Part shown: piece by piece, positions 2,612 through 55,488 of the stretch
How positions within the stretch are numbered: the first letter of the stretch is position 1
How the letters are laid out: each line of letters starts with the position of its first letter
From: Bdellovibrionota bacterium
GTDB lineage: Bacteria > Bdellovibrionota_C > UBA2361 > OMII01
Reading direction: 5' to 3'
Assembly: GCA_044337105.1 (NCBI GenBank)
Contig: JBIIOE010000001.1
Span: 16,309 to 80,308 of the forward strand
Length of the DNA: 64,000 bases
Made by a program: the position numbers and the translations under genes
The notes under the pieces: model-generated
What the model was told of the DNA's origin: nothing
The model's input: the letters and a program-made list of their open reading frames with translations, nothing else
The model's database searches: none

Positions 2612-2670
2612 CCTTCGTGGAGTCGAGTGGGTGATAATGTGGCAGGCGGGGGTTTCGCCTCGCTTCCCTA
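2612..2670. repeat. Composite repeat: CTTCGTGGAGTCGAGTGGG module plus solo MITE terminus
   Basis: ccttcgtggagtcgagtggg (2612-2631), a 17-nt spacer, then gggggtttcgcctcgcttcccTA (2648-2670). Confidence 0.6.
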
Positions 2671-3280: not shown

Positions 3281-5038
3281 GTGGAAGGCTGGCACCTTGC
3301 GCGCAGGGATATGCCTGGTTTTCGTGAAAGCGTTGTAAAAGGGCCGCATGGCGATGTTGTACAATTGGAGGTGTCTTCGTGGGTTCAAGTGCCGTACGTG
3401 CTGCAAAGGCTTCATTGTGCGCCGATGAGGGTCGTGTTTGTCGATGACAGCAACCCGCAACAAGCGGGCATTAGAGACTTTCTGCGCATTAGTAACTCTA
3501 CCAACATCAAAGAGATACTTGAAAAGCTCAAGGGACATCTCGATGCAGCGGAGTCCTTCAAGCCGCACGAGCTGCCACCGCCGGGGAGTATAACGTGCGC
3601 CGCTGACTGGATGTGTGCGCACGATTTTTCGCAGATCGTAGGGCGGCGTCTGGCAACTACGGAGGTGCTTCGGGTGCCAGAGACGGAAGAGCGCCTTGAT
3701 GCGGAGTTCAGGAGCGCCGCTGTGGCGGCGTTCTCCTCGGGGAGGCCGGTGATAGTAACACTTCCTGTTGGGATGCAAGCGCAGGCTGTCGCCGCTGTTC
3801 TCAGAGATGCGTGTTCCTACGTTGCGGATAGTGATGCGCTCAAGTCGAGGGTAAAGGTATGGATGCCAGACTCGGTAAGCTCGTACACTCAGGCGTGGAA
3901 TGCGGAGCTCTCTCTGCAACAGTTTTTCGAGACTACGGCGGGATCGTCCCAGACGCCTCACGAGCCGATTCCTGCAATGAGAGAGGAATTGCCAGAGCCC
4001 ACACAAGAGCCGACAGAGGACGGCTCTGAGCGTGCGCCTTCGCCTAGTGAGCGGCTCAAGGATGCATATGAGGATGCTCTCGTGTTGAGTCTAACGTCAG
4101 AAGGTTTCGGTGGTGAACAGCCGGAGGTTTCGGATACGCTTGATCAACAGCTGCCGGTCGGTGGAGTTTTAGGCACCCAGTCCGAGGGAGTCTCGTTGAC
4201 TGAGGATTCTCCAAGTCTTGATACCTCCAAGCCGTCTGAGTGTGCTCCGAATGCGCTTGCGGTGAAAAATCTGAACGAGACACAAAATTATGTATCTCGA
4301 GCGCTCGATATTCTCCTCGATCCGCCCAAGGAGTTTGCTGACGAAGTTACGTTTCGGATCGAGCATCTCGAGGGGTTCTTCACGTACAAGCTCGAACCTT
4401 ATGCGAGGTCGCCCGTTACGGACGAGACCACGGTTATTCGTGAGTCGAAGGGAGCAGTAGAGCCGGCCGTAGTCTCTCCCGGACCTGCCGCACGGATTCT
4501 GGATCGATGTCGTATGCGGTCATTCGATGATACCGCACAGATGCTGTTCGAGGCACATGAGCACCTATGCGCTAAGTTTTCCGAGGAGCATCGCCCCGGC
4601 AACTCCGTGCAAGACGGGCATCTCGTGACGCTGCCGAACCACGGTAAAGCGATATTCGTGAGCGATCTCGAGGGGGATGTCGCGAAGCTCGCCTTGCTCA
4701 TCGACCAGTACGATCTGATCGATGCATGGAGACGCGATGAACCCATTTTTCTGTGTGTCCTTGGCGATATGGTAGACCGATCTACCACAGGCTCGCTCTT
4801 AGTTGAGTTCCTACTGGAGCTCAAGGTCCGCGAGGGATTTTCGCGTCAGGTCATTATCCTGCCTGGGAACCACGAGCTTTCGTTGGAGATGAATTTCCAG
4901 AAGACCAAGAATTACAGAAGTGACGAACCTTCTCTCCTTGGAGACATCTCGGAAGGGAGTATCCCCGTGGAGCCGACACGCAGAGTGGGCAAGACGCTAT
5001 CAAGATGCTTCATGAACTTTGCCCTAACCCGGCGCTAA
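3281..5038 (+). CDS. Metallophosphatase (PPP/calcineurin-like) family protein, N-terminal portion of a frameshifted gene
   Basis: Longest ORF on either strand here. The C-terminal part has phosphatase motifs I-III: FVSDLEGD (DxHG with H->E), LGDMVDRS (GDxxDR) and LPGNHE (GNHE). The N-terminal ~420 aa are unrecognised and include an acidic/Pro-rich linker. The ORF stops at 5036-5038, before motifs IV/V. Confidence 0.6.
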   Translation: MEGWHLARRDMPGFRESVVKGPHGDVVQLEVSSWVQVPYVLQRLHCAPMRVVFVDDSNPQQAGIRDFLRISNSTNIKEILEKLKGHLDAAESFKPHELPPPGSITCAADWMCAHDFSQIVGRRLATTEVLRVPETEERLDAEFRSAAVAAFSSGRPVIVTLPVGMQAQAVAAVLRDACSYVADSDALKSRVKVWMPDSVSSYTQAWNAELSLQQFFETTAGSSQTPHEPIPAMREELPEPTQEPTEDGSERAPSPSERLKDAYEDALVLSLTSEGFGGEQPEVSDTLDQQLPVGGVLGTQSEGVSLTEDSPSLDTSKPSECAPNALAVKNLNETQNYVSRALDILLDPPKEFADEVTFRIEHLEGFFTYKLEPYARSPVTDETTVIRESKGAVEPAVVSPGPAARILDRCRMRSFDDTAQMLFEAHEHLCAKFSEEHRPGNSVQDGHLVTLPNHGKAIFVSDLEGDVAKLALLIDQYDLIDAWRRDEPIFLCVLGDMVDRSTTGSLLVEFLLELKVREGFSRQVIILPGNHELSLEMNFQKTKNYRSDEPSLLGDISEGSIPVEPTRRVGKTLSRCFMNFALTRR

Positions 5039-12215: not shown

Positions 12216-12244
12216 CTGTAGGGAAGCGTGAAGACGCCCCTCCC
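12216..12244. repeat. Solo MITE terminus (TAgggaagcg...ccctccc)
   Basis: ctgTAgggaagcgtgaagacgcccctccc. Matches the extended terminal-repeat consensus. Confidence 0.5.
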
Positions 12245-12326: not shown

Positions 12327-12355
12327 TCTCTAAGGAAGCAAGGCAAAATCCCTCC
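12327..12355. repeat. Solo MITE terminus, direct copy of 12216 site
   Basis: ctcTAaggaagcaaggcaaaatccctccc. Same orientation as the 12216 site, ~110 bp downstream of it. Confidence 0.5.
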
Positions 12356-12417: not shown

Positions 12418-12780
12418 ATGGCCATTTCGATTCCTCAGATTATCGCGCAACTGTCTAGCGAGCTGCGAATTACCAGGCAGGAGTGCGCCAAGGTGTTGGG
12501 GATCAGTGAAGCTACGCTTTCTAGCTATGAACAAGGTGCTGTGCCTACCAGTGCAGACCGAATGCTCATCGAAAAGCTCGTATCGCCCCTTGCTGTGGTG
12601 CAGATGCTCAAGGGAAAAGAGCGGCTTTTGGGTGTTAAGCTGCACGAGCGCCTCATGCGAGTTGCGGTGTCAAGGGTCTCTCAAGGAGAGCTTCTTGAGT
12701 CAAAGGGCAAACTTGAGCATCGGGAACAAATGGAGTTCCTTGATCGCCTGATTCCGCGCCCGTCTGGCTTTGACAAATAG
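12418..12780 (+). CDS. XRE-family helix-turn-helix protein
   Basis: N-terminal HTH: LRITRQECAKVLGISEATLSSYEQG. 120 aa. Confidence 0.6.
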   Translation: MAISIPQIIAQLSSELRITRQECAKVLGISEATLSSYEQGAVPTSADRMLIEKLVSPLAVVQMLKGKERLLGVKLHERLMRVAVSRVSQGELLESKGKLEHREQMEFLDRLIPRPSGFDK

Positions 12781-12857
12781 GACCACTCTGCTCGTGGCTG
12801 TTTTTGGAAACTCTAAAGATTGGGGCAGGGGGAAGGCCTTGCGAGTAAGAGCTGCTT

Positions 12858-13047
12858 TAGAGGGGAAGCGGGGGAAACCTACCCGTCACGAGAAAGTCGA
12901 GGTTGGTTTGATATTCGATTTTCGTGATGTGGAAAACCGCTGGTGTATCCGCTGCGAGACACCGAGGACTTTTCCACATCGCCCAAGTCGGAGAGCGGCC
13001 TAAGATCCGCCTTCGCGGCAGGAAGAAGGGGATTGCCTCGCTTCCTG
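12858..13047. mobile_element. MITE-like element, type 2
   Basis: Left end TAgaggggaagcgggggaaacctaccc, right end ggggattgcctcgcttcctga. The interior cgagaaagtcgaggttggtttgatattcgattttcgtgatgtggaaaacc is shared with copies at 26236 and 54701. Internal hairpin gatgtggaaaa/ttttccacatc. Confidence 0.7.
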
Positions 13048-15522: not shown

Positions 15523-15548
15523 ATAGGGCGGAGCAAAACGCCCGTCAC
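15523..15548. repeat. Degenerate MITE terminus downstream of htpG
   Basis: aTAgggcggagcaaaacgcccgtcac resembles the type-2 left end (gggaagcgggggaaacctacccgtcac). Confidence 0.35.
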
Positions 15549-17452: not shown

Positions 17453-17686
17453 ACGTCACGATCGTAAAGTTCAGTGGTTTCGATAGGAGGGGCAATAAGC
17501 ATTGGGCAGCAAAAATTCAAGGGGGTGGCCGCTGGGTGGATATAAATACAGCGGCTACGACGGAATTTGCGGGCAGTGCCGAGCTGTGAGAGGGTCAAAT
17601 CACTGTTTCGGGGCGCACGCCACCCTACGGAGACAAGGCAAAACCCCTCCCAGCTGCGAAGACGGAACTTGTCAAGGAGGCTAATC

Positions 17687-25495: not shown

Positions 25496-25647
25496 AGAGA
25501 TAGTCTCTCGTGTGCTCGTGGGTTTATGGTAGCTGCCCGGATCGACCCCCTTTACGTGAGCGAAGTAGCCGGGACCCTACGACCGAATCCTCTGTATGTA
25601 GGATGCAGTCGACCTTCCTAAGGACGCGAGACAAAATAGGGGTTCAT

Positions 25648-26226
25648 CGTGGAATCGAGTGGGGAGTACCGAGGTCAGGGAGGGCACAAGTCGTTGTTTT
25701 AACTATAAATAGCACCTTTCCACGTGAACGTGCTCGTGCACGTAAACGTGAACGTACCCGAACGAGCAACTTTATCTCTTCGCTCCCGAACTAGAGCAGT
25801 ATGCTCGACTATGAAAAACTAGACGTCTATCGAACGGCGCTTGAGTTCGTCATAACTACGATTGAGATTCGCGATCATCTTCCTAGAGGAAGCGGGGAAC
25901 TCGTAGATCAGTTCAAGCGCGCATCTTTCTCGATAGTGCTCAACATTGCCGAAGGTGCTGGCAGGTTCAAACAGGCAGACAAACAGCGCTATTTCTCAAT
26001 AGCACGGGGTTCCGTCATGGAGTGTGGCGCACTCTTTGACCTGTTAAACGCTCTAAACTATCTCTCCCCCGACGAGTATCGCGCTGGTAAGCGTTTGCTT
26101 ACAAGGATTGCAGCCATGCTTTCCAAGCTATGCCTGCAGCCCGCATGATGCCTGTTTCGGGTACGTTCACGTTTACGCGCACGTTCCCGTGGGGATAACA
26201 CCGAGCCCTACCCACTCGATTTCACG
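25648..26226. mobile_element. Palindromic cassette carrying the four-helix-bundle ORF (rRNA-IVS-like architecture)
   Basis: Outer stem: 25648-25663 cgtggaatcgagtggg pairs with 26211-26226 cccactcgatttcacg (15/16). Inner stem: 25720-25763 pairs with 26154-26192. The reverse complement of the right arm, ccacgggaacgtgcgcgtaaacgtgaacgtacccgaaac, matches ccacgtgaacgtgc[tcgtgc]acgtaaacgtgaacgtacccgaac. The ORF 25801..26148 lies in the loop. Confidence 0.7.
25801..26148 (+). CDS. Four-helix-bundle protein (TIGR02436 / 23S rRNA intervening-sequence protein family, Avd-like)
   Basis: Family hallmarks LVDQFKRASFSIVLNIAEGAGR, DKQRYFSIARGSVMEC and an ~115-aa length. The ORF sits between long inverted repeats. 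Confidence 0.85.
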   Translation: MLDYEKLDVYRTALEFVITTIEIRDHLPRGSGELVDQFKRASFSIVLNIAEGAGRFKQADKQRYFSIARGSVMECGALFDLLNALNYLSPDEYRAGKRLLTRIAAMLSKLCLQPA

Positions 26227-26235
26227 AAGACCCAA

Positions 26236-26352
26236 AATAGGGAAGTAAGGCAAACCCGATCCCTGCTGCGGAAGCGGATCTTGGGTTGCCCTCCGATTTT
26301 TGCGATGTGGAACCATCGAATAGTTTTAGGAACGGCCCCAGCTGCCTTCCTG
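26236..26352. mobile_element. MITE-like element, type 2, degenerate right end
   Basis: TAgggaagtaaggcaaaccc..cggaagcggatcttgggttgccctccgatttttgcgatgtggaacc aligns with the 12858 copy. A possible right terminus, gctgccttcctgcgg, lies inside the 3' end of the BON gene. Confidence 0.5.
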
Positions 26353-34266: not shown

Positions 34267-34734
34267 TTAGGCGGCGCAGTCCGAGGCAAGGAGCGTAGAC
34301 TCTGCGCCGGCTACGGCCGTCGCGTGATGCAAGACGAAACTAACGATACTCGACACCGCCCGACGCCGGGTTAGTGTCAGCAGTCCATCCAGCCTTAACT
34401 CCCTAGCGAAGGCCGCCTCGACCCGCAGAATCTCAGAAGGAGGGCGATTGCTGTAGAGATCACAGAGAAGGGAACCTATCCCCTGCACCACTTCTGACTC
34501 TGAAGCGCAGCTGAAGAAGCATCGACCCGCTTGCGTGTGAGCCTCAAGCCAAAGCCCCGAAAGACAACCCGGCACCCGTCGCTCTGAGGTACGACTACTA
34601 GCCGCAACGGGTAGGTGGATCGCCTCCCGCTCCATGAGCCAGGTGAGCTTGTCTTCAGCGCTCTCAAGAGCAAGATACTCCTCGACGAGGGCTGCGTGTT
34701 CAGGCTGACTAAGAAATGGTGTCAGGGTGTTCAT
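34267..34734 (-). CDS. SufE/CsdE-like sulfur acceptor protein
   Basis: RVPGCLSGLWLEA matches the SufE active-site Cys loop (pGCqSqvWl). ATG 34734 is preferred. The extension to 34770 would approach the repeat at 34755. Confidence 0.75.
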   Translation of the reverse strand: MNTLTPFLSQPEHAALVEEYLALESAEDKLTWLMEREAIHLPVAASSRTSERRVPGCLSGLWLEAHTQAGRCFFSCASESEVVQGIGSLLCDLYSNRPPSEILRVEAAFARELRLDGLLTLTRRRAVSSIVSFVLHHATAVAGAESTLLASDCAA

Positions 34735-34754
34735 ACAATGCTTCGTAGCACACC

Positions 34755-34917
34755 TAGGGAAGCGCGGCAAAACCTACCCCATAGTCTCACTTTTGAAATA
34801 ACCACGTGAACGTGCTCGTGCTCGTAAACGTGAACATACCCGAAAAACTTGAGGTTTTTGTTTCGGGTACGTTTACGTTCACGTGCGAGGAAACATAGGT
34901 TTTGCCTCGCTTCCCTA
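34755..34917. mobile_element. MITE-like element, type 1, containing the 71-nt hairpin module
   Basis: TA-gggaagcgcggcaaaacct...aggttttgcctcgcttccc-TA terminal inverted repeats (1 mismatch). The flanks reconstruct CTAG. The interior hairpin ccacgtgaacgtgctcgtgctcgtaaacgtgaacatacccgaaa/tttcgggtacgtttacgttcacgtgcgagg is homologous to the arms at 25720 and 26154. Confidence 0.75.
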
Positions 34918-34996
34918 GCGCTGGAAGTGCAGGGGGCTGCTATCCAGTCGAAAATTCAAAGATTTGACGCTTGAACAGCGTAGTCGCGCGCTGTCT

Positions 34997-40305: not shown

Positions 40306-40708
40306 TGAGGCGCAGCAAAACCGTTGCGGTCCACCCCTGGCTCGTGATTCTGCCGTCTTAAATCAAGATGCGGTGAGAGTTCTGGCTCTATGAGCTGCTT
40401 AGCAACCGATTGACGCTTTCCGGCGGCAGCACGGTGCTCCCTCCAGCCCACGCAGAGTGTGGGGGAGATTTGACCCGTAGGCTCGTTTCAGTCTTTGCAA
40501 ACGAGCTCCCAAGGTGCGTTGTTCCTGGGGAGTATCTAGGAAACTACGTAGGAAACGTCGATAAACTGGATCGAACTTCCGTACGCATAGAGTAAACACG
40601 TAGGTGGATGTCTTAACAGACTACAGTCAGCGTTTGCTCTTCGTTCGGTTGTCTCTTCTCTGCCCGCATTTTCGTGGTGTCACAAAAACAAAAACGAAGG
40701 AGAGACGT

Positions 40709-40864: not shown

Positions 40865-40916
40865 GCCTTTCATCGTGTTCTCTACGCGAGTCGGAACTCG
40901 CCGATGCGCTCGGCCC

Positions 40917-40949
40917 TAGGGAAGGGAGGGGGTTTGCCTCGCTTCCCTA
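40917..40949. mobile_element. Minimal MITE remnant (terminal repeats only)
   Basis: TAgggaagggagggggtttgcctcgcttcccTA. An 11-bp perfect inverted repeat ccctagggaag/cttccctaggg includes the flanks. Confidence 0.6.
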
Positions 40950-41306
40950 GGGGACTTGGGCTTATGAACGCATGAAGGCTGTGAGCCCCGAAGTTTTCTC
41001 GTGCGACGGAAAGCTTCCGGCTCCCGGCACATGCCTGTTCTTACCAATTCCAGACACTGCAGAAAGGATGGTGTCAATTTTTCATCTCCACACAGAGGTG
41101 CAATATCAACCACTTTGCCCAGACAAAGACCGGTATAGACTTGTTTGCGTAAGCTCCTAGCTGTTTGCCCATCTCGGGGCTTTCGGCAGTGCGGTATCCA
41201 TATCAAACCGACATATCAGAGATTGCTGACTATCCTTCCGCGCGTGTCACCTGTAGGCTCTTTGTCGTACCTTCGTTAGAGTACATCATCAATCGGAGAT
41301 ATTATC

Positions 41307-42210: not shown

Positions 42211-42484
42211 CTTTGAGCGGGTTCGAGTGGGCAATTCACGGAATTGTTCTGCTGGGGACCGAAACGTCGGGAAATCGATTACGTGAGTTCAAAGCCTGCT
42301 AGACGACAGAGGCCTCATCTCTGTGTCCTCGAGAGGATCTCTTCGAGGGTAGGGTAAAGAGAATCCGACCGAATAATACTTCCGCCGCCACGTTGCTCGA
42401 TGGTTTAGCCTGGGGTGAAGCCTCCCCTGTCAGCAAACACAGGGACCATGCAGCTGGCGATAATATAGGCGTGGTCGGAGGCCT

Positions 42485-42494
42485 CCCCCCCCCC
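42485..42494. repeat. C10 homopolymer tract bracketed by two GAGGCCTC palindromes
   Basis: cgGAGGCCTCccccccccc GAGGCCTCgaac, intergenic. Confidence 0.8.
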
Positions 42495-42567
42495 CGAGGC
42501 CTCGAACAAGCTCAAGAAGTGAACGGAACGGAAGCGCAAGGCAAGTACTTAGTCGAGATTGATATCG

Positions 42568-42659
42568 GTAAGGAAGCGCGGCAAAACCTACCCCATAGTC
42601 TCACTTTTGAAATAACCACGTGAACGTGCGAGGAAACATAGGTTTTGCCTCGCTTCCCT
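42568..42659. mobile_element. MITE-like element, type 1, lacking the hairpin module
   Basis: Apart from the first TIR base after the TA (a vs g), it is identical to 34755-34917 except for the absence of 71 nt bounded by acgtgc direct repeats. TA flanks both ends. Confidence 0.75.
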
Positions 42660-42845
42660 AAGGTTGCTGACGAGGTTCGCCAATCCTTCGCAGGCTCTTC
42701 CTTCGGCAACCGCAGCCAAACAAATACAGCGCTGTCCGAGGAAAGCGAGGTATACCAAGGATTGAGAGAAACTTGTACGCATGAATGTCAATAGGGCAGT
42801 CTGAGGTTGTTCTAGTTCGGTTGCACAGGCGCTTCGGTGTGAGGA

Positions 42846-54700: not shown

Positions 54701-54822
54701 TAGGGAGGCAAGTCCCTGACTCGGCGAAATACAAGAAGTCGCTGATTTTCGTCCTGCCGAAAGTCGAATATCAACCCAATCTCCACCTTCTCGCTACGGG
54801 CAGGTTGTGCCTCGTCTCCCTA
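54701..54822. mobile_element. MITE-like element, type 2 (inverted relative to 12858 copy)
   Basis: The reverse complement ctttagggagacgaggcacaacctgcccgtagcgagaaggtggagattgggttgatattcgactttcg aligns with 12855-12923. TA at both ends. The right-hand TA is part of the radC stop codon. Confidence 0.65.
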
Positions 54823-55488
54823 AAGCTCCCCCTGCTCCTGAAAGCTGTAATATCCGCGCCTGGCGAAAACGATGTGATCGAGGAGTCGGATTCCCAGGGT
54901 GGTCGCGGCAGCTTTGAGTTGCCGAGTCACCTTACGATCCTCTTCGCTCGGAGCCGGGTCGCCAGACGGGTGGTTGTGCGCCAAGATGATCGAATACGCA
55001 TGGTCTGATATCGGTCCGACGAACACCTCCCGCGGATGTATCGGACAACTGGTGAGCAGGCCAATACTAACCGTTCGGACCCGGATGACTTCGTGGGCTC
55101 CACTGAGCGATATCGTGAGGACGTGCTCCTGGGGCCGATCGAGCAGGTGATTAACGAGTGGCAGAACATCTCGCGCGCACGTAATCCTCGTCCCTTCTGG
55201 ACGAATGCGCCGTCGCGCAAACTCCAGCGCCGCCGCGATCAGATACGCTTTGGACGGCCCGATACCGGATATCTCTTGAAGGGCAGTCAGATCGATGTGC
55301 TCGGCCGTATTTTCAAGGAGCGGCAATACCCGCCCTGCCAGTGCGTTGACCGGCAGTCCCCGTGTTCCCGTTCCCAGCATGACAGCTAGAAGCTCCTGGT
55401 CGGAGAGCGAGCGTGCGCCCTGCCGAGCTAGCTTCTCGCGAGGCAGGGTTTCGATATCGATGGTGTCGTGTTCAATCTCGGTGTGCAT
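54820..55488 (-). CDS. radC: RadC-like JAB-domain protein
   Basis: LSDQELLAVMLGTGTRG, and the JAMM motif ILAHNHPSGDPAPSEED. ATG 55488 gives the usual ~220 aa. The ORF extension to 55794 reads through a repeat hairpin (55537-55579). Confidence 0.85.
   Translation of the reverse strand: MHTEIEHDTIDIETLPREKLARQGARSLSDQELLAVMLGTGTRGLPVNALAGRVLPLLENTAEHIDLTALQEISGIGPSKAYLIAAALEFARRRIRPEGTRITCARDVLPLVNHLLDRPQEHVLTISLSGAHEVIRVRTVSIGLLTSCPIHPREVFVGPISDHAYSIILAHNHPSGDPAPSEEDRKVTRQLKAAATTLGIRLLDHIVFARRGYYSFQEQGEL

What the first reader, a model, noticed from the sequence alone, without database searches (positions are those of the whole stretch)
42568..42659. Dense MITE-like family with GGGAAGCG..GGCAAAACC terminal inverted repeats and TA (CTAG) flanks
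I found about 15 termini in 64 kb.

All but three are purely intergenic. The exceptions are 54822, which forms part of the radC stop codon; 26236-26352, which runs into the BON gene 3' end; and 12858-13047, which lies within the spurious tracked ORF 12770..13003.

Paired copies: 12858-13047, 34755-34917, 40917-40949, 42568-42659 and 54701-54822.

Solo or degenerate ends: 2648-2670, 12216-12244, 12327-12355, 15523-15548, 25615-25642 and 26236-26257.

In almost every case the repeat is immediately preceded by TA. For 34755 and 40917 the two flanks reconstruct a CTAG target.

TA duplication, with CTAG preference for IS630 itself, is the signature of IS630/Tc1-mariner transposition. These are therefore plausibly non-autonomous derivatives. 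No transposase gene is present in the window.

The spurious ORFs 34615..34809 and 42393..42623 share the tail EARQNLPHSLTFEITT only because they read through this repeat.
Basis: partly seen in the sequence, partly recalled or inferred. Interest (0 to 1): 0.6.

Follow-up and report, generated by a model that had tools for sequence, protein, structure and literature searches.

The report
IS5-type miniature transposon family, Bdellovibrionota
The repeat is a real family of small gene-less jumping elements (MITEs) that fills one group of uncultured freshwater Bdellovibrionota. It duplicates four bases (CTAG, CTAA or TTAG) on insertion, which is the signature of IS5-type transposons and not the IS630/mariner type first proposed, so it is an ordinary kind of element in an undescribed family.

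Summary
The terminal repeat GGAAGCGNGGCAAAACC occurs 11 times in the window at up to 3 mismatches, against 0.2 expected. It occurs about 230 to 415 times in the 3.8-Mb genome.

It bounds two MITE subfamilies:
- A is 175 nt, its copies are 98% identical, and it is specific to this genome.
- B is 182 nt, its copies are about 87% identical, and it is shared by part of the genus.

Mobility is shown directly. One copy interrupts ilvD, and seven relatives have the uninterrupted gene, gap-free across the junction.

The IS630/TA reading is not upheld. The flanking direct repeat is 4 bp, YTAR. Both outer positions co-vary in direct orientation (Fisher p = 1e-10 and 5e-8). The counts are CTAG/CTAG 17, CTAA/CTAA 10 and TTAG/TTAG 3.

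YTAR duplication plus GGAAG-tipped ends is the IS5-subgroup signature. Two comparators fit this:
- MITEPsy1/ISPsy2 of Pseudomonas syringae.
- An intact metagenomic IS5 element with end GGAAGCGCTGCAAAAG and CTAG flanks.

IS630 elements in congeners have unrelated ends, and the own genome has none.

The cognate transposase was not found in this assembly, in 35 congeneric genomes, or in the other collections searched. Only decayed IS5-group remnants with similar ends exist.

Verdict: a new member of a known kind, of modest interest.

The parts
42572..42657 (+). Subfamily-A MITE, short form. It is 86 nt and has lost most of the internal hairpin. This is the copy named in the finding.
   Evidence: TIRs at 42572-42588(+) and 42641-42657(-) with 0 mismatches. 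It is 100% identical to consensus A at positions 5-62 and 146-182.
42568..42571 (.). Left flanking 4-mer GTAA. It matches the right-hand CTAA at 3 of 4 positions.
42658..42661 (.). Right flanking 4-mer CTAA (target-site duplication).
34758..34914 (+). Subfamily-A MITE, 157 nt, flanked by a perfect CTAG/CTAG (34754-34757 and 34915-34918). It lies between the sufE start and the next gene's stop.
   Evidence: Congeners lack it at the orthologous intergenic spacer, though the alignment there is not base-precise.
12864..13045 (+). Subfamily-B MITE, full length, degenerate (about 85% to consensus).
40920..40946 (.). 27-nt remnant consisting of two abutted ends, flanked by CTAG/CTAG. The left CTAG supplies a TAG stop for the unannotated ORF 40916..41206(-).
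54758..54819 (-). Subfamily-B remnant (left-end half). The flanking CTAA at 54820-54823 contains the TAG stop codon of radC on the minus strand.
26241..26312 (+). Subfamily-B right-end half, preceded by ATAG. It overlaps the 3' end of the BON-domain gene.
2651..2667 (-). Solo terminus followed by CTAG.
12334..12350 (+). Solo terminus preceded by CTAA.
17629..17660 (+).

Best explanation
[quoted passage not shown] Each element is GGAAGCG(A/C)GGCAAAACC ... GGTTTTGCC(T/G)CGCTTCC. It carries no gene and folds into one long hairpin.

**How it moves (inferred).** A DDE transposase of the IS5 family, IS5 subgroup, acts in trans. It binds the about 17-bp terminal inverted repeats, excises or copies the element, and inserts it at 5'-YTAR-3'. 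The preference is CTAG first, then CTAA or TTAG, and TTAA rarely. Staggered cuts 4 bp apart are repaired into a 4-bp target-site duplication.

**Consequences of the target.**
- Each insertion recreates a CTAG or CTAA on both sides, so new copies often land directly beside old ones.
- Stop codons (TAG, TAA) inside YTAR are frequent landing sites.

**Two subfamilies.** B (182 nt) is old and shared by part of the genus. A (175 nt) uses the same ends around a hexamer-repeat hairpin, and its copies are recent and specific to this genome.

**Shown and inferred.** Shown: the repeat family, its ends, the 4-bp duplication, one base-precise insertion into a gene, and the lineage distribution. Inferred: the identity of the transposase, which was not found.
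For: **Family and anatomy**
- Pairing termini at up to 2 mismatches gives 65 inverted pairs, with size classes 177 and 184 nt when the flanking base on each side is included, plus deletion forms.
- Four recurrent end types occur 40 to 52 times each.
- Consensus A is 175 nt (28 copies, median pairwise identity 98.2%). Consensus B is 182 nt (33 copies, median 86.8%).
- Both fold as near-complete hairpins, with z-scores of -12.9 and -16.6.

**4-bp duplication**
- Class counts are CTAG/CTAG 17, CTAA/CTAA 10 and TTAG/TTAG 3.
- Exact 4-bp direct repeats occur in 61 of 150 copies, against 23.6 in shuffles. Both outer positions co-vary in direct orientation (p = 1.3e-10 and 5.3e-8).
- Young subfamily A has 21 of 31 perfect and 30 of 31 at 3 of 4 or better. 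Old subfamily B has 14 of 47 perfect.

**Real transposition**
- The 184-nt copy at own contig C215:5272-5461 sits inside the ilvD reading frame, flanked by CTAA/CTAA.
- The joined flanks read AGISLTLDD in frame and align gap-free to ilvD of 7 relatives. Two of them carry a single CTAA at that site.
- Both junctions are present in assembler contigs of two independent lake metagenome runs.

**IS5-type ends**
- An intact 1140-bp metagenomic IS5 element (NF033581, 333 bits) has the left end GGAAGCGCTGCAAAAG, 14 of 16 identical to the MITE end, and CTAG/CTAG flanks.
- An IS5-subgroup remnant in the own genome ends in GGAGGCGATGCAAAA, 13 of 15 identical.
- Its more complete homologue in a congener is preceded by CTAA.

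**Literature**
- The IS5 duplication motif is 5'-(C/T)TA(A/G)-3' (PMC5009759).
- MITEPsy1 has ends GGAAGGTCTGAAAAAGCC and a 4-nt CTAG/YTAA duplication. It is attributed to the IS5-family ISPsy2 and was trapped experimentally (PMC3189936).

**Distribution**
- Termini at up to 1 mismatch: 228 in the own genome and 182, 69, 62, 62, 61 and 38 in some congeners.
- About half the genus has 0 to 3, and genomes outside the genus have 0 to 2, which equals the reversed-pattern control.
Against: **No cognate transposase was found.**
- No IS5-subgroup gene reaches E <= 1e-20 in the own genome or in the other MITE-rich genomes.
- None lies between long-range end pairs.
- The single metagenome hit comes from a 66-71% GC host. 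It shares nothing with the MITEs beyond the terminal about 16 nt.
- TIR similarity of 13 to 14 out of 15 to 16 is suggestive, not proof.

**This is uncomfortable for subfamily A.** Its copies are 98% identical, which implies recent activity, yet the assembly holds no candidate enzyme. The genome is a 225-contig MAG in which multi-copy IS are likely to be lost, and 63 of 415 termini lie within 300 nt of contig ends.

**Other gaps.**
- Only one empty site is base-precise. Other cross-species comparisons were too diverged at the junction.
- No insertion polymorphism was seen in four public runs. Assembler contigs break at the repeat.
Confidence: 0.72

Rival explanations
1. One reading: IS630/Tc1-mariner-derived MITEs that insert at TA, with a preference for CTAG, and duplicate only the TA. 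The element proper would be GGGAAGCG...CGCTTCCC.
For: TA is the most conserved part of the flank, with TA/TA in 39 of 65 pairs. For CTAG-flanked copies the two models give the identical string. IS630-type (DDE_3) transposases exist in 4 of the 24 other same-genus genomes searched (10 of all 41 genomes).
Against: The bases outside TA co-vary as a direct repeat on both sides. In 98%-identical copies the supposed first and last element bases vary in about a quarter of copies and always match the opposite flank. There is no DDE_3 gene in the own genome. The intact IS630 of congener G021 has unrelated ends, and none of the 15 DDE_3 loci encloses the motif.
Confidence: 0.06
2. The MITEs are mobilised by an IS701-family transposase. 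That family also makes a conserved duplication of exactly 4 bp.
For: The IS701 family is described as having a highly conserved target duplication of exactly four bp (PMC2266710).
Against: The published IS701 end consensus (---YACT-Y--YR) does not fit GGAAGCGAGG (PMC2266710). No IS701 transposase reaches the curated cut-off in any of the 35 genomes of the genus. The best hit is 43.8 bits against a cut-off of 150.
Confidence: 0.06
3. The MITEs are cross-mobilised by a different IS5-family subgroup (IS427/IS1031-like), such as the 832-bp element at own contig C72:2105-2936.
For: That element (NF033580, 105 bits on the N-terminal part) has ends GAAGCCATCTCAAAAGC and sits between TTAG and CTAG. 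The ends and target are loosely similar.
Against: It is single-copy and carries an internal TAG stop. Its ends need an indel to align with the MITE ends and lack the GGAAG tip. In the cited papers, IS5-family elements with GAG-tipped ends include ISPsy19, which has a 3-nt duplication (PMC3189936, PMC4596501). The subgroup assignment of these elements rests on my own knowledge.
Confidence: 0.08
4. The repeats are not mobile. They would be a conserved regulatory, terminator or REP-like motif kept at fixed positions.
For: The elements are strong hairpins. Most lie between genes, often just after stop codons.
Against: There is an insertion inside the ilvD reading frame with an empty site in 7 relatives. 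Copy number ranges from 0 to 228 within one genus. Copies carry target-site duplications. Subfamily A is absent from other species. No Rfam family matches.
Confidence: 0.03

Closest known systems
MITEPsy1 / ISPsy2 of Pseudomonas syringae pv. phaseolicola (IS5 family; PMC3189936)
   Same: Both are gene-less elements with GGAAG-tipped terminal inverted repeats of about 17-18 bp. MITEPsy1's is GGAAGGTCTGAAAAAGCC and ours is GGAAGCGAGGCAAAACCT, 11 of 18 identical by my own alignment of the two printed sequences, with the same GGAAG...AAAA..C layout. Both make a 4-nt duplication of CTAG or YTAA. MITEPsy1 was shown to transpose in entrapment experiments.
   Different: MITEPsy1 is 100 nt, present in about 6 copies, and has an identifiable parent in the same genome. 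Here the elements are 175-182 nt full-length hairpins, there are more than 100 copies, and no parent is found. There is no sequence homology beyond the ends. The host phylum is different.
IS5 of Escherichia coli and the IS5 subgroup of the IS5 family
   Same: Target and duplication are 5'-YTAR-3', 4 bp (PMC5009759). The ends are of the same type as those of the intact IS5_4 element L150 (GGAAGCGCTGCAAAAG, CTAG flanks).
   Different: The elements here carry no transposase. TTAA is almost never used as target, although it is as frequent in the genome as the others.
IS630-derived and other TA-duplicating MITEs (RUP of Streptococcus, Correia/NEMIS of Neisseria)
   Same: Small size, hairpin shape, intergenic abundance and a TA at the insertion point. 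The comparison rests on my own knowledge of these families.
   Different: Those elements duplicate only TA. Here the duplication is 4 bp, and the ends do not match any IS630 element of the lineage.

Membership tests
MITE (non-autonomous TIR transposon) | Terminal inverted repeats bounding a short element that has no transposase gene | tested here: met
   17-bp arms. Elements are 45-184 nt. No ORF other than read-through artefacts.
MITE (non-autonomous TIR transposon) | Multiple dispersed copies with target-site duplications | tested here: met
   About 100 paired copies and more than 200 termini. The 4-bp direct repeats are far above shuffled expectation.
MITE (non-autonomous TIR transposon) | Occupied and empty sites exist for the same locus | tested here: met
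   The ilvD insertion compared with 7 uninterrupted orthologues, gap-free across the junction. Both junctions are confirmed in independent runs.
IS5 family, IS5 subgroup (as source of the transposase) | 4-bp target-site duplication with consensus YTAR | tested here: met
   CTAG, CTAA and TTAG dominate. Positions 1 and 4 co-vary in direct orientation. The motif is as in PMC5009759.
IS5 family, IS5 subgroup (as source of the transposase) | Terminal inverted repeats of about 16 bp starting GGAAG | tested here: met
   The MITE end is GGAAGCGAGGCAAAAC. It is 14 of 16 identical to the left end of the intact IS5_4 element L150. MITEPsy1 has GGAAGGTCTGAAAAAGCC (PMC3189936).
IS5 family, IS5 subgroup (as source of the transposase) | A cognate autonomous element with the same ends encoding an IS5-type DDE transposase in the lineage | tested here: not met
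   Only decayed remnants with similar (13 of 15) but not identical ends were found. None occurs in MITE-rich genomes. The 1.5-kb TIR-bounded unit in a congener is an IS4-family element nested inside a MITE.
IS5 family, IS5 subgroup (as source of the transposase) | Transposase-dependent mobilisation of the element | not testable with these tools
   Needs a mating-out or entrapment assay.
IS630 / Tc1-mariner-derived MITE | Duplication of the TA dinucleotide only | tested here: not met
   The duplication spans 4 bp.
IS630 / Tc1-mariner-derived MITE | Ends shared with an IS630-family element of the host lineage | tested here: not met
   No DDE_3 gene in the own genome. None of the 15 DDE_3 loci of relatives encloses the motif. 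The intact copy has the unrelated end TAGTGTTTTTCAAAAAGATTGAGAC.
IS701 family | 4-bp duplication, family-typical ends (---YACT) and an IS701 transposase in the lineage | tested here: not met
   The 4-bp duplication is met. The end consensus is not met (PMC2266710). No IS701 gene above cut-off in 35 genomes of the genus.

The most novel reading that the evidence does not exclude
Subfamily A has spread recently (28 copies, 98% identical) in a genome and a genus where no matching transposase can be found. Its interior is a hexamer-repeat hairpin that other notes of this scan link to cassettes carrying '23S-rRNA-intervening-sequence' four-helix-bundle genes. The most novel reading not excluded is that these ends are a shared landing gear. 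They would be used by several unrelated cargo modules and driven by an enzyme that is not an IS5 transposase, or that resides on an unbinned plasmid or phage of the community. That would be trans-mobilisation across replicons or across element types rather than a simple parent-and-deletion-derivative relation.
Probability: 0.1. Interest if true: 0.6.

Novelty: new member of a known kind. Interest (0 to 1): 0.3.

Why it matters
**For annotation.**
- The family and its internal hairpin module match about 0.9% of this genome (420 merged loci).
- It creates spurious ORFs with shared tails.
- It supplies or overlaps stop codons.
- It breaks assemblies at its copies.
- At least once it has disrupted a biosynthetic gene (ilvD).

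Recognising the family cleans up gene calls across a whole genus of uncultured freshwater Bdellovibrionota.

**For transposon biology.** It is a clean natural data set of more than 100 copies of two ages, showing IS5-type YTAR targeting with self-clustering at the regenerated CTAG. It also adds a phylum for which I found no paper describing MITEs.

**As a method point.** For palindromic targets, a TA duplication and a 4-bp duplication give the same string. Only the non-palindromic target classes, through covariation of the outer positions, tell them apart.

Tried and rejected
**Searches for the autonomous parent, all negative**
- Pfam DDE_3 and Transposase_1 in the own genome.
- ORFs between end pairs 0.6-5 kb apart in the own genome and in 70 loci of other species. 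Only host genes were found.
- DDE_Tnp_1 and NF033581 searches over 41 and 124 genomes, with an end scan of every locus.
- End types after the TIR. All recurrent types are MITE interiors.
- A viral-contig scan gave chance hits only.

**A false lead.** L086 (congener G010) is a 1.5-kb unit bounded by perfect MITE ends and encoding a 397-aa DDE protein. It is an IS4-family element (DUF4372 + DDE_Tnp_1, NF033592) with its own ends CCACTACTGTCCAATAG. It is nested in the MITE hairpin with a 6-bp CTCGTG duplication.

**A wasted scan.** My first metagenome pattern had a typing error (21 Ns instead of 19) and so found nothing. The corrected pattern covers only a 30-nt window of spacing, so other architectures were not sampled.

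**Empty sites and polymorphism**
- Cross-species empty sites for three other copies and for the 34758 copy showed shorter spacers without the element. They are too diverged at the junction to be base-precise.
- Insertion polymorphism in public runs could not be seen. Assembler contigs stop at the repeat and no skipping joints appeared.

**Subterminal similarity.** There is none between the MITE ends and the IS5 remnants or L150 beyond the TIR.

Full report

Yes. At 42568-42659 there is a 22-nt inverted repeat pair separated by 48 nt.

The window is contig C24:16309-80308 of a 3.80-Mb, 225-contig, 54.6% GC metagenome-assembled genome. Genome-wide the motif occurs 90 times exactly and 415 times at up to 3 mismatches. 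Pairing facing termini at up to 2 mismatches gives 65 elements. Relaxing to 3 mismatches gives about 100.

BLAST of the two consensus elements against the window supports nine member loci. Hits at 4 mismatches are at chance frequency.

- The radC stop codon overlaps the element's flank.
- The BON-domain gene overlaps a degenerate copy.
- The shared peptide tail is read-through of the repeat.

**2. Anatomy**

Four subterminal sequence types recur 40-52 times each and define two subfamilies.

| Subfamily | Length | Copies analysed | Median pairwise identity | Where found |
|---|---|---|---|---|
| A | 175 nt | 28 near-full copies | 98.2% | 52 ends in this genome, essentially none in 70 loci of other species |
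| B | 182 nt | 33 | 86.8% | several species of the genus |

Subfamily A consists of the common ends, short unique segments, and a central hairpin built from ACGT-containing hexamers. Both subfamilies fold into almost complete hairpins, at -99 and -124 kcal/mol with z-scores of -12.9 and -16.6. The finding's own copy is a subfamily-A element that has lost most of its hairpin.

**3. The target-site duplication is 4 bp, not 2**

For copies flanked by CTAG the two readings give the same string: C-TA-[GGGAAG...] and CTAG-[GGAAG...]. The non-palindromic classes decide between them.

With the element defined as GGAAGCG...CGCTTCC, the flanking 4-mers are:

| Left / right | Count |
|---|---|
| CTAG / CTAG | 17 |
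| CTAA / CTAA | 10 |
| TTAG / TTAG | 3 |
| CTAA / CTAG | 1 |
| CTAG / CTAA | 1 |
| CTAA / TTAG (the inverted combination) | 0 |

Further evidence:
- Over 150 paired copies (99 from this genome, 51 from other species), exact 4-bp direct repeats number 61, against 23.6 in shuffles with a maximum of 41.
- Position 4 co-varies G/A with p = 1.3e-10, and position 1 co-varies C/T with p = 5.3e-8.
- Young subfamily A keeps 21 of 31 perfect and 30 of 31 at 3 of 4 or better. Old subfamily B keeps 14 of 47 perfect. That is the expected decay with age.
- The four YTAR words are equally common in the genome, at 1.35-1.53 per kb. TTAA is almost never used, so there is a real preference for CTAG and for CTAA/TTAG.
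- Many flanks are themselves ends of another copy (...GCTTCC-CTAG-GGAAGC...). Copies therefore cluster at the regenerated target.

**4. Proof of insertion**

At own contig C215:5272-5461 a subfamily-B copy lies inside ilvD, flanked by CTAA/CTAA. Joining the flanks with one CTAA restores the frame ...LHLIAMARAAGISLTLDDIQ.... The joined sequence aligns without a gap across the junction to ilvD of seven relatives at 69-83% identity. Two of them have a single CTAA at exactly that place.

Contigs of two independent public lake metagenome runs carry both junctions, so this is not a binning or assembly artefact.

This rules out the refutation scenario of a fixed regulatory or terminator motif. So do the distribution and the absence of any Rfam match.

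**5. Distribution**

Exact-pattern scanning of one genome per species found the motif almost only in MAGs labelled Bdellovibrionota from lakes and ponds.

Counts of termini at up to 1 mismatch over 124 genomes of the phylum:
- This genome: 228.
- Some congeners: 182, 69, 62, 62, 61, 38, 23, 22, 22, 21, 13.
- The other half of the genus: 0-3.
- Outside the genus: 0-2, equal to the reversed-pattern control.

At least one site is occupied in two species, as a 53-nt remnant here and a 149-nt copy there. The family therefore predates some speciation events. Subfamily A is a recent burst in this lineage.

**6. Which transposase?**

*IS630.* The own genome has no DDE_3 gene. Four of the 24 other same-genus genomes searched have them (10 of all 41 genomes searched). 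The intact copy (G021:C62) has ends TAGTGTTTTTCAAAAAGATTGAGAC, and none of the 15 loci encloses the MITE motif.

*IS701.* It makes an exact 4-bp duplication, but the published end consensus is different (PMC2266710). No gene passes the cut-off in 35 genomes of the genus.

*IS5 subgroup.* The published duplication motif is 5'-(C/T)TA(A/G)-3' (PMC5009759). The experimentally trapped MITEPsy1 has ends GGAAGGTCTGAAAAAGCC and a 4-nt CTAG/YTAA duplication, and is attributed to the IS5-family ISPsy2 (PMC3189936).

Evidence from this lineage and from metagenomes:
- The own genome has a decayed IS5-subgroup remnant at C215, about 3554-4000. Its end GGAGGCGATGCAAAA is 13 of 15 identical to the MITE end.
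- A congener has a fuller pseudogene of the same element (NF033581, 126 bits on the N-terminal 166 aa), preceded by CTAA.
- A metagenome scan combined the MITE end with a back-translated IS5 motif (GRP-x6-MLRI) at IS5-like spacing. It returned one contig, an intact 1140-bp IS5_4 element (333 bits) with left end GGAAGCGCTGCAAAAG and CTAG/CTAG flanks.
- That element comes from a 66-71% GC organism and shares nothing with the MITEs beyond the end. It shows that this end type belongs to real IS5-subgroup elements. It is not the parent.

*A tempting false parent.* A 1.5-kb unit with perfect MITE ends in congener G010 turned out to be an IS4-family element with its own inverted repeats, nested in a MITE.

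**7. What remains open**

No cognate transposase was found in the assembly, in 35 congeneric genomes or in the other collections searched. This sits uneasily with the youth of subfamily A.

The most economical explanation is loss of multi-copy IS from a short-read MAG. Assembler contigs of the source-type runs break at every copy, and summed word depth at the elements is about 100-fold that of the flanks across all organisms. A non-cognate or extrachromosomal enzyme cannot be excluded. I give that 10%.

**8. Verdict**

| Claim | Status |
|---|---|
| Observation | Confirmed |
| MITE interpretation | Supported |
| IS630/TA assignment | Not supported; replaced by IS5-subgroup-type transposition with 4-bp YTAR duplication |
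| Confidence that these are MITEs | About 0.95 |
| Confidence in IS5-type mobilisation | About 0.7 |
| Novelty | New family of a well-known kind in a phylum for which I found no paper describing MITEs |

An earlier agent of this scan, working on another piece of the genome, also named MITEPsy1 as the closest known relative for the roughly 190-nt hairpin family.

Noticed in passing
own genome contig C215:4405-5600 (outside the window; locus L106): ilvD looks like a pseudogene. Besides the 184-nt MITE insertion, which adds 188 nt and shifts the frame, there is an in-frame TAA at about codon 12 (...YSSRIT*PKSQGA...). A decayed IS5-subgroup element lies just upstream.
   Followed up: partly
L086:1200-2700 (congener G010, contig C374): An IS4-family insertion sequence (397-aa DUF4372 + DDE_Tnp_1 transposase, own ends CCACTACTGTCCAATAG) is nested inside the hexamer hairpin of a MITE, with a 6-bp CTCGTG duplication. 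It mimics an autonomous element with MITE ends.
   Followed up: yes
window 25720-25762 and 26153-26191: The hexamer-repeat arms of subfamily A's internal hairpin also occur on their own. They flank the 115-aa ORF 25801..26148, without the MITE ends. Earlier notes of this scan call this a cassette carrying an rRNA-intervening-sequence-type four-helix-bundle gene.
   Followed up: partly
window 42468-42500: A run of 12 C sits inside a short palindrome (GAGGCCTC-C12-GAGGCCTC), about 70 nt upstream of the finding's MITE. Homopolymer tracts of this length are candidates for slippage.
   Followed up: no
own genome contig C72:2105-2936: A single-copy 832-bp IS5-family element of the IS427/IS1031 type (NF033580). 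It has an A7 slippery site between two frames, an internal TAG, ends GAAGCCATCTCAAAAGC and flanks TTAG/CTAG.
   Followed up: partly
window 40357-40474: A SAM riboswitch (RF00162, 45 bits, just above the gathering score) lies about 450 nt upstream of the small MITE remnant at 40920.
   Followed up: no
window 54820-54823 and 40916-40919: Two minus-strand ORFs (radC, and an unannotated 96-aa ORF) end in a TAG that is part of the MITE's flanking CTAG or CTAA. Insertion at YTAR that overlaps a stop codon keeps a stop in place because the target is duplicated.
   Followed up: partly
L128:2260-2440 (G083, another family of the same order): The IS5-subgroup element there appears to be interrupted or followed by a gene for the same four-helix-bundle 'IVS protein' type (EEFGYEKLDVYQCSMEFL...). 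I identified this from the translated sequence only.
   Followed up: no
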